Of a stretch of 38,029 nucleotides of DNA, positions 20,452 to 30,309 are shown piece by piece (positions within the stretch are counted from its first letter, which is position 1; every line of letters begins with the position of its first letter). A program made the position numbers and the translations under genes. A model generated the notes under the pieces. The model made no database searches and had not been told where the DNA came from. It saw only the letters and a list, made by a program, of their open reading frames with translations. Source of the stretch: a virus; the UHGV virus genome UHGV-0335973. The stretch is one strand, 5' to 3'.

Positions 20452-20632
20452 TACTCAAGAGTCAGTAATAGAAGAGATTAAAGCTCAGATAGTTGATAAA
20501 CTCTCTATCAGGGTTGATTCTAAAGACACCAAATGCTCTGGTATATTGAAGATAGATCTTCTTTACAATGGGGAGGTTATCTCCTTTGATGAGGTATATG
20601 CCTCTGATATTAAATACTTAGCAGAGTTTTAA
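20444..20632 (+). CDS. hypothetical protein (GTG start)
   Basis: ORF overlapping upstream stop; track start 20384 is in the upstream gene. Confidence 0.35.
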   Translation: MSNTQESVIEEIKAQIVDKLSIRVDSKDTKCSGILKIDLLYNGEVISFDEVYASDIKYLAEF

Positions 20633-20686
20633 TAGCATTCATAATGTATACTCCTTAGTGTACACTGATATATTAAGGAGTTTTAA

Positions 20687-21004
20687 ATGGCAGATCATGT
20701 AGGAAAGAGAGATTATGCACAAGAAAGACGTACCGCAATTGCCCGTGGTGAGACAGGCGTTGGGAGCAAGAGCGGAGATGCTCAGCGCCACCGTGCACGT
20801 CGCATCGTTGAAAAGCGCGACGGAAAAGCTGCTGTCAGAGGTAAAGACGTTGGACACAAACGAGCTGTCAAGTCTGGAGGTTCTAATGCGTCAAGCAACT
20901 TACGTGTTGAATCAGTCAGCTCAAACCGTTCAAACGGCGGCAAAAGTGGTGATCGAGCTGGAAAAGCAGCTGGAGCACGCAAAGGAGCTTTAAGCTCATC
21001 GTAA
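20687..21004 (+). CDS. basic Gly/Ser/Lys-rich low-complexity protein (KGG-like stress protein flavour); alternative overlapping frame 20715-20993 also open
   Basis: strong TAAGGAG SD 6 nt upstream; locally GC-richer island; followed by strong terminator. Confidence 0.4.
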   Translation: MADHVGKRDYAQERRTAIARGETGVGSKSGDAQRHRARRIVEKRDGKAAVRGKDVGHKRAVKSGGSNASSNLRVESVSSNRSNGGKSGDRAGKAAGARKGALSSS

Positions 21005-22207: not shown

Positions 22208-23558
22208 GTGAGCAACCCGGACGCTCTTCCATTTTTGACAGAGATGACTGTCGCTGATATAATCTCTAAGCAAGCAAAGCACGGAGTGAGTTTCAACCGA
22301 AGAAATGCTCGGTGGTATGTTCACCTCCTTAAAGAGATTATTGTTAATATTGACAGAGAGTTGATTCCTCTCTTACCTAAGATGAGATTAGACGGCTCTA
22401 CTTATATGAAGCCGTTTAAGAAGTCTGGAGCTTTGCAGAAGTGGCCTCAAGCTTATTGTGATAGGGTTGGACTTAAGAGAGAAGATATTGGTGGAGCTTT
22501 CACCTGTGTCGAATATGTAGACTTTGACCCATCGAAAGATGCACGAGTTAAAGAAGCTCTTATGGATGAGGGCTTTCTTCCTCCAGAGTTTAACGTATCT
22601 AAGAAGCCTTGGAATACTTTCGAAATTAAGAAAGACATGAGAAAGTATGGAACATACCAAGCATGGTATACTGCTTGGATGCGAGGCAATGCTAAGCAGA
22701 AGCAGACAGCCGAGATGGTTGACGCTGATATTAAGAAGTTCTTAGAAAAGCATTTCAGGTTTAAAACTAAGAACTACATGAAGGCTTATGTATTTGGTTT
22801 AGGTTTAAACCCTAACCGACGTAATCCTGTAACGTTTGATGAGATTAAGAAAGCACTAGCCACATCAAACAAGTGGCCTACAGCTCCTACAAACCTCGAG
22901 GAGACTCTTGAAGAAGGGTTAGGGGGTGAGCTAGGGAGTGTCGGAAGTTTGCTTAAGAGACGCGTTGTAGCGGCTCACAGGCTAGGTCTTATCAGTGGAC
23001 TCATAGCAAAGGAGCGCGAAGATGGTAAACTTTCGGCAGAAGCTAACAGCTGCGCTACGCCGACTTTTCGATTCAAACACCGTATCGTGGTTAATATTCC
23101 CTCCCGTGGTTTGTTTGGTCATGAGTGTCGCAGTTTGTTTGAATCTGACTATAACTCAGATGATGATCACTCTCGTCCTTTCGTTATTACTAACGTTGTT
23201 CCTGATGGTTGTTATATACGAAAAGGTACTAACGTAATTTATGAGAAAGGTAAACCGGGGAAGAAAGACAAACCTGTAGGTGCTTACAAATATTACATAC
23301 CCGCTGGTAAAGAAGTATTCTTAGGGTATGATGGTTCTGGGCTTGAACTTCGTATGCTCGCTCACTACCTCATTAAAGAGTGTAGGGATATGCTTGCTGA
23401 GGCAATCGAAGAGAACAATCCAGCTAAGAAAGCTCTGGCAGAACGTGGTTTAGCTTCTGCTATTATGTATCGTGATATTCTCCTTGAAGGTGATATCCAC
23501 TCCCACAACCAGAAACTTGCTGGTCTTCCTACTCGTGACAACGCTAAGACGTTTATCT
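22208..23558 (+). CDS. DNA polymerase (family A, T7 gene 5-like polymerase domain), exon 1
   Basis: motif A GYDGSGLELRMLAHY; DIHSHNQKLAGLPTRDNAKTFI = start of motif B; track stop 23558-23560 is created by the intron. Confidence 0.75.
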
Positions 23559-24264
23559 GACGTAAATGGATACTTCGAGAGTAATCTCGTCGATTAAATT
23601 GGGTGAACTCAGGGAAACTCTCTAGTAGACAATCCTGAGCCAAGCAAGTATTCTATAGCAACTCAACAAGGAGGTGCTTATGGAATATACAACTGTAACT
23701 AAAACTAAAGAAGAACAGACTGCCGAGGCAGGTAAATACCCTCAAGGTCAGTTCAACCCAAAACCTTGCCGTAATTGCTCAAAAGATTTTCAACCAAATG
23801 CACCATCTGAACATTATTGCTCTGATGGATGCAAAGATAGAGGCTGGAGAAATTCATACTTCAAACGAATGTATGGAATCACAGCCGATGATTACGAAAA
23901 GATGTACGCTGATCAGGATGGGAAGTGTGCTATCTGTAAGGGCGAAGGATTTGTAATGGCAACACATCACAGAATTAGACTTGTGGTTGATCATTGCCAT
24001 GAATCTGGAGTAATACGTGGTCTGTTGTGTCACAACTGCAACAGAGCTTTAGGGCTACTGAAAGATGATGTTAGCCGATTAGAAACAGCTATAGAATACT
24101 TGAAGGTGCAACGACTATCCGAAAGGAGTACACCGGAAGCTGATGCCGGTGGAAGCGCCCAACCCCTCGACAGAGGGTGATGATATAGTCTATCCTACAC
24201 GGCGACGTGTAGCAGTTCATAAGAGAACGGGCAGGAGTGTTGCGGCTCCTGTCGAATATACGAG
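23559..24264 (+). mobile_element. group I intron (706 nt) with endonuclease VII-type HNH ORF
   Basis: P1 pairing exon UAUCU with intron GGAUA (~23568); 5' and 3' segments homologous to intron 1 with compensatory changes in two hairpins; splicing yields KTFIYAFNYGAGD, matching T7 KTFIYGFLYGAGD spacing. Confidence 0.65.
23674..24180 (+). CDS. intron-encoded HNH endonuclease (endonuclease VII family)
   Basis: CAICKGEG...VVDHCHESGVIRGLLCHNCNRALG motif; AAGGAGG SD. Confidence 0.65.
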   Translation: MLMEYTTVTKTKEEQTAEAGKYPQGQFNPKPCRNCSKDFQPNAPSEHYCSDGCKDRGWRNSYFKRMYGITADDYEKMYADQDGKCAICKGEGFVMATHHRIRLVVDHCHESGVIRGLLCHNCNRALGLLKDDVSRLETAIEYLKVQRLSERSTPEADAGGSAQPLDRG

Positions 24265-24758
24265 ATGCGTTCAACTACGGTGCTGGCGACGCTAAGCTTG
24301 GCTCAATTGTAGGTGGTGGGGCTGACGAAGGCTCAGTGATGCGAGCACGTTTCTTAGCAGAGAACCCATGTATTGCAATCCTCATTGATCGTATGACAGA
24401 AAAGGCTGCTCAAGGGTACTTGATTGGTGTTGATGGTCGTAAGATTACAATGAGACGAGATGCCACTGGTAAAGTTATGGTTCATAAAGCCCTTAACACA
24501 CTCCTGCAATGTGCTGGTGCTGTTGTTATGAAATATGCTATGATGTTCCTCAACAAGTGGATTGAGAGGGATGGGGTTCGTTGTGCTAAGGTAATTGATA
24601 TGCACGATGAAGGTCAATTCTCAGTAAACCGTAATGATGTACAGAAACTCAAAGAGCACACTGAGCTTTGTGTTAAGAAAGCTGGTGAGTATTTGAACAT
24701 GGAATGTCCTCTGGCTTCTGATTGTCAGATTGGATTAAATTGGATGCACACACACTAA
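24265..24758 (+). CDS. DNA polymerase, exon 2 (motif B/C region)
   Basis: AFNYGAGDAKLG and NTLLQCAGAVVMK, HDEGQF matching T7 gene 5 C-terminal region; track start 24237 is intron-encoded. Confidence 0.7.
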
Positions 24759-25917: not shown

Positions 25918-26085
25918 ATGAAGAAATATAGTGTATGGATTAATGAGGAAGAAGAAGGTTTTGATGAAGTTGGAGGATGGGTAAATATCCTAAACACTGA
26001 CGACATAGAAGAGGCCGAGAAGTGCGCCCTAAACTATAACTCTGGATATTATGAAAGAAATTGGGAGTATAAGGAAGAAGTATGA
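25918..26085 (+). CDS. hypothetical acidic small protein
   Basis: ORF from track with internal ATG start. Confidence 0.3.
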   Translation: MKKYSVWINEEEEGFDEVGGWVNILNTDDIEEAEKCALNYNSGYYERNWEYKEEV

Positions 26086-27439: not shown

Positions 27440-27985
27440 AGAACCTGTAGTACATAAAGACTCTATCAGAGATCAATATAATGAGATGTTAAAGAAACAA
27501 GCTGATTCTAATCTTCGTTATCAGAGGATAGTAGAACAATCTAACTTTAAAGGTTTACTTGAATGGTAACTTATATTGTTTACTTCTTAGCTTTCTTAGG
27601 AATAATCTTTTTATCTATTATTCTTGAATTTGGTTTAAGTAAGTTAGTTAATTATTTAGGTAATAAGTAATTATTATTCTTTTAAATAGAGAATCAAAGT
27701 CCCTAGGAGTCCCTACAACCTAAATCAAGGATTCCTTAATTCTCTATTTTTATCTCGCAGGTGGCTCCTGCCCTTCGGTACTTGCAAGGGATTCTGTGAA
27801 TTGCCCAATATACAAGCCTGCAATAACTTTATCAGCTATACAATATATACATTACTAGTGTGTTATATCTACTACCAAAGATACTTATATTATATAGCAC
27901 TCTTATCGGTATAAGCGTAATGTATACTATACATAACCGCTCAAAGAGAGCAACAATCTTTCAAATTAAATAAGGAAATTAAAAT

Positions 27986-28732
27986 ATGTCTATGATTCCA
28001 ACTATCGCAACTGCTTCCCGTAAATCCAACTACGATGTAATCCCTGATGGTGAATACGAAGCACGTATCGTTCGTGTAGTAGGTTTGGGTGTTCACAATC
28101 GTGACCCTTGGATTGACCCGAAGACCAAAGCAGTAACTCCTAAGAATCCGGCTTTCCGTATGGATTTAGCTTTCGAGCTGATTGGTGTTGATGCTACTGG
28201 TAAAGATTCCGATGGTAAGGCATTAGAACCACGTCCGGCTTGCCAGTTCAAGAGCTATGATGTAAACCCACGAGCTAAGAACTCTGGTATTCTTGATCTC
28301 TGCAAGATGATTGACCCAAGTATTCAAGCACTGAAAGGTGATCTGTCTTGGTTCAAGGATGTTCTGTTAGGTCAGCCTGTTAACATTCTGGTTAACTCTT
28401 ATACTAACAAAGCTGGTGAAGTTAAAAACTCCATCAAGACCATTTCTCCAATCCCAACCAAATATCGTGCAGCAGTTGGTGAAGCTCGCAGTCCTCTGGT
28501 ATTCTTCGAACCATATGCTGAAACCGATGAGAACGTAGCATCCTATCAACTGATGTTCCCGTTCCAGCGCAACCTGCTTACCCAAGCTAATGACGCTAAG
28601 AACATGCCTCTGGCTGGTCGTGAAATTACTCGTGCTTCTGAAACAGAACAGAAAGAAGCTACTCCTTCAATCCCTACGATTGATAAAGAGCCTGCTTCTA
28701 CCTATGAAGATGACAACGACTCTCCTTTCTAA
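27986..28732 (+). CDS. putative ssDNA-binding protein with acidic C-terminal tail ending in Phe
   Basis: C-terminus YEDDNDSPF resembles acidic F-terminated tails of E. coli SSB and T7 gp2.5; strong RBS, long upstream intergenic region, terminator downstream. Confidence 0.45.
   Translation: MSMIPTIATASRKSNYDVIPDGEYEARIVRVVGLGVHNRDPWIDPKTKAVTPKNPAFRMDLAFELIGVDATGKDSDGKALEPRPACQFKSYDVNPRAKNSGILDLCKMIDPSIQALKGDLSWFKDVLLGQPVNILVNSYTNKAGEVKNSIKTISPIPTKYRAAVGEARSPLVFFEPYAETDENVASYQLMFPFQRNLLTQANDAKNMPLAGREITRASETEQKEATPSIPTIDKEPASTYEDDNDSPF

Positions 28733-29025: not shown

Positions 29026-30309
<1,284 letters not shown>

What the first reader, a model, noticed from the sequence alone, without database searches (positions are those of the whole stretch)
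20642..20652. Recurrent TAATGTATACT motif upstream of highly expressed-looking genes
The 11-mer TAATGTATACT occurs 35 nt upstream of the 20687 start and again at 27918-27928, 58 nt upstream of the SSB start. A related AAATGTATATAGAGTAC lies upstream of 16564. This could be a -10-like promoter element used by host RNAP or by the phage sigma factor candidate.
Basis: seen in the sequence. Interest (0 to 1): 0.4.

Follow-up and report, generated by a model that had tools for sequence, protein, structure and literature searches.

The report
Known phage sigma-factor promoters (phiEco32 type)
The repeated TAATGTATA motif is the already published promoter signal read by this phage's own sigma factor (gp36 of phiEco32-like coliphages), so the finding is real but already explained; a fourth copy on the opposite strand, absent from the published lists I could read, is the only part that may be new.

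Summary
TAATGTATACT occurs exactly twice (20642-20652 and 27918-27928; 0.03 expected by chance), and AAATGTATATAGAGTAC lies at 16516-16532.

The window is a Kuravirus (phiEco32-like coliphage), about 95-98% identical to phiEco32. The motif is the published consensus tAATGTAtA of promoters used by E. coli RNA polymerase carrying the phage sigma factor gp36. The three sites are the orthologues of the phiEco32 middle promoters P58, P40 and P68. P68 has been used for in vitro transcription and a cryo-EM open complex.

The window encodes gp36 (29286-29930, 213/214 identical, all DNA-contact residues kept) and the co-activator gp79 (9753-10001, 100% identical). All three sites also carry T-38, R-37 and A-34. 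So the sigma-factor reading is supported and the finding is already known. The trailing 'CT' is not part of the signal.

Three extras do not appear in the papers I could read:
- A fourth perfect TAATGTATA lies on the minus strand (27854-27846). It carries P68's upstream block and was found in all 20 relatives checked. It would start a non-coding RNA of about 159 nt.
- Leader hairpins hide the ribosome-binding sites of genes 58 and 68 unless transcription starts at the gp36 promoter.
- A nearly invariant block lies at 27684-27772.

None of these extras is supported by transcript data.

The parts
20642..20650 (+). P58: gp36 -10-like element TAATGTATA. G-11 is at 20646 and the predicted +1 is 20657.
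   Evidence: Exact match. It is identical to phiEco32 P58 upstream of phi32_58 and is listed as P58 in Table S3 of PMC8948821. In many relatives homology starts exactly at this motif.
20618..20624 (+). P58 -35 region, TTAGCAG (-39 to -33), with T-38, A-37 and A-34.
   Evidence: The register is taken from the cryo-EM numbering of P68. T-38/R-37/A-34 were scored. The same three positions recur in the non-homologous upstream sequences of ECBP2 and KBNP1711.
20687..21004 (+). Gene 58 orthologue (105 aa, function unknown), the first gene served by P58.
   Evidence: Same length and position as phi32_58. It matches PHROG 4590, of unknown function.
27918..27926 (+). P40: gp36 -10-like element TAATGTATA. 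G-11 is at 27922 and the predicted +1 is 27933.
   Evidence: Exact match. It is identical to phiEco32 P40 and is listed in Table S3 of PMC8948821.
27894..27900 (+). P40 -35 region, ATAGCAC, with T-38, A-37 and A-34.
27986..28732 (+). Gene 40 orthologue (248 aa), the first gene served by P40.
   Evidence: It has the same length and position as phi32_40 and aligns with it through the start codon. tblastn gave 98-100% identity in most Kuravirus records. PHROG 6599 is of unknown function and there is no Pfam domain.
16516..16524 (+). P68: gp36 -10-like element AAATGTATA. G-11 is at 16520 and the predicted +1 is 16531.
   Evidence: It is identical to phiEco32 P68, the promoter used for in vitro transcription and for the cryo-EM open complex (PMC12276001).
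16492..16505 (+). P68 -35 region block TTGGTAGTAGATAT. G-37 is at 16494 and A-34 at 16497.
   Evidence: The -37G and -34A contacts come from PMC12276001. GGTAGTAGATA occurs only twice in the window and only twice in the whole phiEco32 genome.
16564..16893 (+). Gene 68 orthologue (109 aa, function unknown), the first gene served by P68.
29286..29930 (+). gp36, the phage sigma factor that reads the motif.
   Evidence: It is 213/214 identical to phi32_36. E79, H80, Y83, R84, W90, S91, S94, N95, Y186 and R187 are all present. It matches PDB 9M7Y chain F and PHROG 1740, sigma factor.
9753..10001 (+). gp79, which inhibits the sigma70 holoenzyme and activates the gp36 holoenzyme.
   Evidence: It is 82/82 identical to phi32_79 and matches PDB 9M7Y and 9M7Z. 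Its function is described in PMC12276001.
27846..27879 (-). Candidate seventh gp36-type promoter, back to back with P40. TTGGTAGTAGATAT spans 27879-27866, a 10-nt spacer follows, and TAATGTATA spans 27854-27846. The predicted +1 is 27839. It is not among the six published promoters.
   Evidence: The upstream block is identical to that of P68, at the same spacing. The site is conserved in 20 of 20 relatives while the spacer varies. It is the only perfect 9-mer in phiEco32 that is not a listed promoter.
27681..27839 (-). Predicted non-coding RNA of about 159 nt from the divergent promoter. It has a 5' hairpin starting at +1, a variable middle domain and a nearly invariant 3' block with a long hairpin. 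The 3' end is uncertain.
   Evidence: Alignments. Indels that are not multiples of three, with no conserved ORF. Covariation in the 5' hairpin. The minus strand folds better than the plus strand. There is no Rfam family.
20650..20681 (+). Gene 58 leader hairpin. The 5' arm 20650-20662 pairs with 20669-20681 and covers the Shine-Dalgarno AAGGAG (20675-20680). The predicted P58 start at 20657 lies inside the 5' arm.
   Evidence: -15.9 kcal/mol and z -2.1 with the arm, against -1.6 kcal/mol from +1. The same holds in 5 genomes.
16507..16565 (+). Gene 68 leader hairpin. GUAACUCUC (16507-16515) pairs with GAGAGUUAU (16557-16565), covering part of the Shine-Dalgarno sequence and the AU of the start codon. 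The P68 element and its start lie inside the loop.
   Evidence: -20.3 kcal/mol, z -3.67, 0 of 200 shuffles as stable; -2.3 kcal/mol from +1. One search repeats this in 6 genomes. One compensatory A-U to C-G change exists, but the statistics are weak.

Best explanation
The motif is the -10-like element of promoters recognised by E. coli core RNA polymerase bound to the phage-encoded sigma factor gp36. The window belongs to a phiEco32-like Kuravirus.

The three sites are the middle promoters P68 (16516-16524), P58 (20642-20650) and P40 (27918-27926).

Shown for phiEco32 in the literature:
- gp36 and gp79 are then made.
- gp79 displaces sigma70 region 4 and stabilises the C-terminal domain of gp36.
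- The N-terminal domain of gp36 reads A-14, A-13, T-12 and G-11 of AATGTA and melts the DNA from -11.
- The C-terminal domain contacts -37 and -34.
- Transcription starts 6-8 nt downstream of the 9-mer.

Inferred here by orthology and sequence identity: the same happens at window positions 16531, 20657 and 27933. These starts would drive the operons that begin with the orthologues of genes 68, 58 and 40.
For: Identity of the phage:
- The window is 93-96% identical over 13 kb to many Kuravirus genomes.
- It is 94.9% and 98.4% identical to phiEco32 over the two motif regions.

Identity of the motif:
- Table S3 of PMC8948821 lists TAATGTATA for P40 and P58 and aAATGTATA for P68, in phiEco32 and five relatives.
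- PMC4331800 places the motif upstream of genes 6, 13, 26, 40, 58 and 68.

Orthology:
- Gene sizes and order match phi32_68, phi32_58 and phi32_40.
- The promoter regions align almost base for base with phiEco32.

Machinery present in the window:
- gp36 is 213/214 identical, with every published DNA-contact residue.
- gp79 is 100% identical.

Upstream determinant:
- All three sites have T-38, R-37 and A-34, which fits the cryo-EM contacts at -37 and -34.
- None of the six other one-mismatch 9-mers in the window has all three.

Conservation:
- The 9-mers are invariant in Kuravirus, Suseptimavirus and Nieuwekanaalvirus genomes.
- At P58 homology begins exactly at the motif in many relatives.

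Direct biochemistry on the orthologous promoter: gp36-holoenzyme transcription and an open-complex structure on P68 (PMC12276001).
Against: No transcript start has been mapped for this particular phage; the assignment rests on orthology.

I could not read the primary mapping paper (Pavlova et al. 2012, J Mol Biol 416:389). It is not held, so the experimental status of P40 and P58 comes from later papers that cite it.

The SU10 paper predicts overlapping sigma70 promoters at the same places. The simple scan also finds TTAGCA-16-CATAAT at 20618-20645, a 9/12 match. Some early sigma70 use therefore cannot be excluded.
Confidence: 0.93

Rival explanations
1. The sites are ordinary host sigma70 promoters. 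TATACT, the last six bases of the 11-mer, would serve as the -10 hexamer, or CATAAT would at P58, and the phage sigma would play no part.
For: TATACT matches TATAAT at 5 of 6 positions. One search lists TTAGCA-16-CATAAT at 20618-20645 (9/12). The SU10 genome paper predicts sigma70 promoters with BPROM at the three middle positions.
Against: The sigma70-type scan found fewer hits than in shuffled sequence (38 against 46.9), and none uses TATACT. No acceptable -35 hexamer lies 16-18 nt upstream of TATACT at P58 or P40.

The conserved core is AATGTATA, not a TATAAT-like hexamer, and the CT is lost at P40 in several genera.

gp79 shuts off the sigma70 holoenzyme while these genes are being expressed, and the gp36 holoenzyme transcribes P68 in vitro (PMC12276001).
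Confidence: 0.04
2. The motif is the binding site of a phage repressor or other DNA-binding regulator, or a recombination or homing hot-spot, rather than a promoter element.
For: P40 is nearly palindromic: TAATGTATA-C-TATACATAA (27918-27936). The mosaic junction at P58 coincides with the 5' edge of the motif.
Against: The orientation relative to the downstream genes is fixed, as is the distance to the predicted start. The motif matches the published gp36 element base for base, and the structure shows the sigma reading these very bases. No candidate regulator is known.
Confidence: 0.02
3. The recurrence is a chance event in AT-rich intergenic DNA and has no function.
For: Short versions of the motif are not enriched.
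Against: The 11-mer occurs twice against 0.03 expected. The sites are invariant across three genera while the flanks diverge. All lie upstream of operon-leading genes.
Confidence: 0.01

Closest known systems
phiEco32 gp36-dependent middle promoters P68, P58 and P40 (Pavlova et al. 2012; Lavysh et al. 2022, PMC8948821; NAR 2025, PMC12276001)
   Same: The 9-mers are the same, they sit before the same orthologous genes, and the flanks are nearly identical. The sigma factor and gp79 are the same. The -37 and -34 bases are the same at P68.
   Different: Nothing of substance differs; this is another isolate of the same virus group. There are single-base differences in the -35 region of P40 (ATAGCAC here, ATAGTAC in phiEco32) and in the spacers.
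Late promoters of Salmonella phage 7-11 and Cronobacter phage GAP52 (gp47 sigma; GTAAtg-N16-aCTA)
   Same: A phage-encoded, distantly related sigma factor directs host core polymerase. A promoter sits upstream of the gp40 homologue, gene 48.
   Different: The consensus is different and bipartite, and there is no gp79 homologue. AATGTATA-type sites are absent there, and no divergent partner promoter exists upstream of gene 48.
T4 late promoters (gp55 with gp33; TATAAATA at -10) and T4 sigma appropriation (AsiA/MotA)
   Same: A phage sigma-like factor reads one dominant -10-type element, and a small phage protein remodels the polymerase. PMC12276001 draws the analogy to AsiA/MotA. The comparison with the gp55 promoters is from general knowledge.
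   Different: gp36 has a sigma4-like C-terminal domain that contacts -37 and -34. The motif differs, and no sliding-clamp activation is known.
T4 late genes whose ribosome-binding site is hidden in early read-through transcripts and exposed in transcripts that start at a late promoter inside the hairpin (gene e lysozyme, soc, gene 49, I-TevI; recalled from the literature, not checked here)
   Same: At P58 and P68 the predicted start lies inside or after the 5' arm of a hairpin whose 3' arm covers the Shine-Dalgarno sequence.
   Different: This has not been shown experimentally for any phiEco32-like phage. Covariation support is weak, and P40 has no such hairpin.

Membership tests
phiEco32-type gp36-dependent promoters | A single conserved element tAATGTAtA, with AATGTA at -14 to -9. 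| tested here: met
   TAATGTATA at 20642 and 27918 and AAATGTATA at 16516. The consensus is given in PMC8948821 and PMC12276001.
phiEco32-type gp36-dependent promoters | Location upstream of the orthologues of phiEco32 genes 68, 58 and 40, in the orientation of the genes. | tested here: met
   Gene-by-gene correspondence and near-identical alignment through the start codons. Table S3 of PMC8948821 lists the positions.
phiEco32-type gp36-dependent promoters | The cognate sigma factor gp36 is encoded in the same genome with its DNA-contact residues intact. | tested here: met
   Window 29286-29930 is 213/214 identical. E79, H80, Y83, R84, W90, S91, S94, N95, Y186 and R187 are present, and it matches PDB 9M7Y_F.
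phiEco32-type gp36-dependent promoters | The co-activator and sigma70 inhibitor gp79 is encoded. | tested here: met
   Window 9753-10001 is 82/82 identical and matches PDB 9M7Y_G.
phiEco32-type gp36-dependent promoters | -35 region contacts: a purine at -37 and an A at -34. | tested here: met
   P68 has G and A, P58 has A and A, and P40 has A and A, each with T at -38. The same holds for phiEco32 P6, P13 and P26. The contacts are described.
phiEco32-type gp36-dependent promoters | Transcription starts 6-8 nt downstream of the element, depends on the gp36 holoenzyme and is stimulated by gp79. | not testable with these tools
   This needs primer extension, dRNA-seq or in vitro transcription. It is known only for phiEco32 itself, through citations of Pavlova 2012 and through PMC12276001.
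phiEco32-type gp36-dependent promoters (the extra minus-strand site at 27879-27846) | All sequence features above, plus conservation among relatives. | tested here: met
   It has a perfect 9-mer and P68's TTGGTAGTAGATAT block at the same spacing, with T-38, G-37 and A-34. It is present in 20 of 20 relatives with a variable spacer. Activity could not be tested, and the site is not in the published list of six.
Sigma70 (-35/-10) promoters | A TTGACA-like hexamer 16-18 nt upstream of a TATAAT-like hexamer. | tested here: not met
   Only a 9/12 match at P58, using a different hexamer. P68 and P40 have none, and the scan gave fewer hits than in shuffled sequence.
Known RNA families (for the predicted 159-nt RNA) | A match to an Rfam covariance model at gathering score. 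| tested here: not met
   No hit at gathering threshold over the whole window. Only chance-level hairpin hits appeared at E up to 10.

The most novel reading that the evidence does not exclude
phiEco32-like phages may have a seventh gp36-type promoter that is absent from the published lists. It lies back to back with P40 on the opposite strand (window 27879-27846) and would make a conserved non-coding RNA of about 159 nt (27839 to about 27681). The 3' two-thirds of that RNA is the most conserved DNA in the region. The RNA could act on read-through transcripts or on replication next to gene 40.

In addition, genes 58 and 68 may be translated only from gp36-initiated transcripts. In that reading the promoter sits inside a hairpin that hides the ribosome-binding site in read-through RNA.
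Probability: 0.45. Interest if true: 0.5.

Novelty: already known. Interest (0 to 1): 0.2.

Why it matters
As reported, the finding re-discovers from raw sequence a promoter class that was mapped in 2012 and visualised by cryo-EM in 2025. Its value is annotation: it fixes the three middle-operon starts and the temporal class of the genes in this window.

The part that could matter is the by-product. The phiEco32 system is a model for sigma replacement by a phage. An unlisted promoter that makes a conserved non-coding RNA would add a new player to that system. Leader hairpins that tie translation to the choice of promoter would add a second layer of timing control. Both ideas can be tested cheaply in that system.

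Tried and rejected
- **Primary papers:** Pavlova 2012 (DOI and PMC3275717) and Savalia 2008 (PMC2587145) are not held. I therefore cannot say whether the minus-strand site was ever tested.
- **IMG/VR scan with the bipartite pattern:** it returned only four copies of RefSeq genomes.
- **Metagenome scan:** it returned 20 loci. Six were unrelated chance matches and only two added divergent-site sequences, though it did add P68 leader variants.
- **Rfam:** there were no hits at gathering threshold, and a relaxed-threshold scan of the P40 intergenic region gave only chance-level hits. There are no tRNAs.
- **Coding reading of the region downstream of the divergent promoter:** rejected. Only TTG- or GTG-started ORFs of 20-37 aa exist, and the indels among relatives are not multiples of three.
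- **Canonical intrinsic terminator at 27683-27750:** the scan does not detect one and relatives do not annotate one. The stem base is AU-rich, so the 3' end of the RNA is uncertain.
- **Structure of the 5' 86 nt of the predicted RNA:** not significantly stable (z -0.66). Outside the first hairpin almost all predicted pairs are invariant, so they give no covariation evidence.
- **Trans target of the RNA:** a duplex scan of the whole phiEco32 genome showed nothing beyond the RNA's own antisense locus.
- **Deeper conservation:** 7-11 and GAP52 have no divergent promoter and no such block upstream of the gp40 homologue.
- **Covariation for the P68 leader hairpin:** one compensatory pair only, and 49 of 500 shuffles did as well.
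- **Literature search for Kuravirus transcriptomes, sRNAs or antisense RNAs:** nothing relevant was found.

Full report
**1. The observation**

TAATGTATACT occurs exactly twice in the 38,029-bp window, both times on the + strand, at 20642-20652 and 27918-27928. The chance expectation is 0.03, and no shuffle gave two matches. The two copies end 35 nt before the ATG at 20687 and 58 nt before the ATG at 27986. The related AAATGTATATAGAGTAC is at 16516-16532, upstream of the ATG at 16564.

The 9-mer core TAATGTATA occurs three times against 0.33 expected. Short or degenerate versions are not enriched. What is unusual is therefore the exact long match and its placement.

**2. What the window is**

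The window is 93-96% identical over 13 kb to dozens of Escherichia phages of the genus Kuravirus. It is 94.9% and 98.4% identical to phiEco32 over the two motif regions.

The phiEco32 annotation gives a gene-by-gene correspondence:
- 16564-16893 is phi32_68.
- 20687-21004 is phi32_58.
- 27986-28732 is phi32_40.
- 29286-29930 is phi32_36, annotated as an ECF-type RNA polymerase sigma factor.

**3. What the motif is**

The literature on phiEco32 answers this directly. Six promoters used by the gp36 holoenzyme were identified upstream of genes 6, 13, 26, 40, 58 and 68. They share a single consensus element tAATGTAtA, and transcription starts 6-8 bp downstream (PMC8948821; PMC4331800; PMC4281155).

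Table S3 of PMC8948821 lists TAATGTATA for P40 and P58 and aAATGTATA for P68, in phiEco32 and five relatives. These are exactly the three sequences in the window. The window's promoter regions align almost base for base with those of phiEco32.

A 2025 cryo-EM study placed AATGTA at -14 to -9 (PMC12276001):
- gp36 residues N95, S91, S94, E79 and H80 read A-14, A-13, T-12 and G-11.
- W90 and Y83 stack at the fork junction.
- The sigma4-like C-terminal domain contacts G-37 through R187 and A-34 through Y186 on P68.
- gp79 shuts off the sigma70 holoenzyme and stimulates gp36-dependent transcription 3- to 4-fold.

**4. Is the machinery present here?**

The window's gp36 is 213/214 identical to phi32_36 and keeps every contact residue named above. 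It matches PDB 9M7Y chain F. gp79 is encoded at 9753-10001, is 82/82 identical and matches 9M7Y and 9M7Z.

With G-11 at 16520, 20646 and 27922, the predicted starts are 16531, 20657 and 27933. In that register P68 has G-37 at 16494 and A-34 at 16497, as in the structure. All three sites have T-38, R-37 and A-34, and none of the six other one-mismatch 9-mers in the window has all three. The same three positions hold for phiEco32 P6, P13 and P26.

At P58 the upstream DNA is not homologous among relatives, because BLAST homology starts at window 20641-20642, the first base of the motif. T-38, G-37 and A-34 nevertheless recur in ECBP2 and KBNP1711.

**5. Verdict on the finding**

The interpretation as a -10-like element used by the phage sigma factor is supported. 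The feature is already known: these are the middle promoters P68, P58 and P40 of a phiEco32-like phage.

The sigma70 alternative is weak:
- The only sigma70-like match is a 9/12 hit at P58 that uses a different hexamer.
- The scan as a whole found fewer hits than in shuffled sequence.
- gp79 inactivates the sigma70 holoenzyme during the phase when these genes are expressed.

What is missing is direct start-site mapping in this isolate. I also could not read the primary 2012 paper.

**6. A fourth site that is not in the published lists**

The minus-strand TAATGTATA (27854-27846) is preceded by TTGGTAGTAGATAT (27879-27866). The same 14-mer sits upstream of P68 (16492-16505), with the same 10-nt spacer before the 9-mer.

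In the complete phiEco32 genome, TAATGTATA occurs five times: at P13, P26, P40, P58 and this site. GGTAGTAGATA occurs only twice: at P68 and this site.

The site is present in all 20 relatives I fetched, covering Kuravirus, Suseptimavirus, Nieuwekanaalvirus and unclassified isolates. The two elements are invariant while the spacer between them varies. One genome has TGGTAGTAtAT at the same offset. The papers I could read speak of six promoters and do not mention this site. GenBank records annotate nothing there.

**7. What that site would transcribe**

The predicted start is 27839 on the minus strand, 94 bp from the predicted P40 start and pointing away from it.

The first 17 nt form a hairpin, AUAGCU-GAUAA-AGUUAU. 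Among six sequence variants, two of its pairs show changes on both sides, there are G-U pairs that would be A-C mismatches on the other strand, and 97% of cells are paired. Only 3 of 500 shuffles did as well.

A middle domain follows and exists in two unrelated forms.

Then comes a block at 27684-27772 in which 27-29 of every 30 columns are invariant across six genomes of three genera. The adjacent gene 40 coding sequence has about 21 of 30. The block contains a long hairpin (27684-27749) and a direct repeat, AGTCCCTA twice at a 10-bp period.

The region is not coding. Only short ORFs starting with TTG or GTG are present, and the indels among relatives are not multiples of three.

The minus strand folds better than its complement:
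- Single-sequence folding gives -45.8 against -35.3 kcal/mol (z -2.55 against -1.61).
- Alignment folding gives -39.1 against -32.8 kcal/mol.

The remaining checks did not help:
- The 5' 86 nt alone are not significantly stable.
- Most predicted pairs never vary, so they carry no covariation evidence.
- Rfam has no matching family.
- No trans target stood out.
- Phages 7-11 and GAP52 lack the arrangement.

I regard a gp36-dependent start here as likely and a functional RNA of about 159 nt as plausible. Its role is unknown. It could act as an antisense RNA to read-through transcripts, as an insulator between operons, or as an origin transcript. Its 3' end is uncertain because the hairpin is not a canonical terminator.

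**8. Leader hairpins at P58 and P68**

RNA that includes the sequence just upstream of the predicted start folds into a hairpin that covers the ribosome-binding site.

| Gene | 5' arm | 3' arm | Covers | With the arm | From the predicted +1 |
|---|---|---|---|---|---|
| 58 | 20650-20662 | 20669-20681 | AAGGAG | -15.9 kcal/mol, z -2.1 | -1.6 kcal/mol |
| 68 | 16507-16515 | 16557-16565 | part of AGGAGAG and the AU of the AUG | -20.3 kcal/mol, z -3.67, 0 of 200 shuffles as stable | -2.3 kcal/mol |

RNA that starts at the predicted +1 lacks the 5' arm and is essentially unstructured. The same holds in five or six genomes.

One A-U to C-G compensatory change occurs in KBNP1711 and two metagenomic contigs, and a C-U intermediate occurs in another contig. 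The statistics are weak. P40 has no such hairpin.

This suggests that genes 58 and 68 are translated only from gp36-initiated transcripts. The logic is known for several T4 late genes; I recall that from the literature and did not check it here. It is an inference, not a result.

**9. Other observations**

- The primase/helicase gene is split between residues 311 and 312 by an insert that carries an HNH endonuclease ORF.
- The DNA polymerase gene is split near residue 450 by an insert that carries an endonuclease VII-type ORF. No group I intron model matches either insert.
- A perfect sigma70 consensus promoter lies inside the 5' end of the polymerase gene.

**10. Scores**

The finding as given is already known, so its interest is low (0.2). 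The most novel reading my evidence does not exclude combines the unlisted seventh promoter, its RNA and promoter-coupled translation. I give it a probability of about 0.45 and an interest of about 0.5 if true.

Noticed in passing
window 27846-27879 (minus strand): A fourth perfect TAATGTATA sits 10 nt downstream of TTGGTAGTAGATAT, the same block and spacing as at P68. It lies back to back with P40, is conserved in 20 of 20 relatives with a variable spacer, and is not among the six published gp36 promoters.
   Followed up: yes
window 27681-27839 (minus strand): A non-coding RNA of about 159 nt is predicted from that site. It has a 5' hairpin with compensatory changes starting at +1, a middle domain in two unrelated forms, and no Rfam match. 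Its function and 3' end are unknown.
   Followed up: partly
window 27684-27772: This is the most conserved block of the region, with 27-29 of 30 columns invariant in six genomes of three genera against about 21 of 30 in gene 40. It contains a long hairpin (27684-27749) and the direct repeat AGTCCCTA twice at a 10-bp period (27698-27705 and 27708-27715). In some relatives both repeat copies lose one G together.
   Followed up: partly
window 20650-20681: A 13-bp leader hairpin hides the Shine-Dalgarno sequence of gene 58. The predicted P58 start (20657) lies inside its 5' arm, so only read-through RNA would be blocked.
   Followed up: partly
window 16507-16565: A 9-bp stem pairs the sequence just upstream of the P68 element with the Shine-Dalgarno and start-codon region of gene 68 (z -3.67). 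RNA from the predicted start (16531) lacks it. One compensatory A-U to C-G change is seen in KBNP1711-like sequences.
   Followed up: partly
window 20641-20642: In many relatives BLAST homology begins exactly at the first base of the P58 motif. The upstream DNA is mosaic and in several relatives carries an HNH homing endonuclease gene.
   Followed up: partly
window 10892-13466: The primase/helicase gene (phi32_75 orthologue) is split precisely between residues 311 and 312 by an insert of about 720 bp that carries an HNH endonuclease ORF (11919-12419). No group I intron model matches.
   Followed up: partly
window 22208-24758: The DNA polymerase gene (phi32_53 orthologue) is split near residue 450 by an insert that carries an endonuclease VII-type ORF (23674-24180). 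Relatives have HNH endonucleases in the polymerase gene at other positions.
   Followed up: partly
window 22235-22263: A perfect sigma70 consensus promoter (TTGACA, 17 nt, TATAAT, with an upstream TG) lies inside the first 60 nt of the DNA polymerase coding sequence. It is also present in phiEco32 and MN05 but not in ECBP2, SU7 or KBNP1711.
   Followed up: partly
window 27917-27937: The P40 element is nearly palindromic: GTAATGTATA-C-TATACATAAC. This places a one-mismatch copy (TTATGTATA) on the opposite strand, overlapping the P40 start region.
   Followed up: no
L025 (phiEco32) 9071-9110 and 25984-26023: The late promoters P13 and P26 share TAAGACCTA at -38 to -30. The middle promoter P68 and the new site share TTGGTAGTAGATAT. 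The upstream regions may therefore be class-specific.
   Followed up: no
Only a few GenBank records label it as an ssDNA-binding protein.
   Followed up: partly
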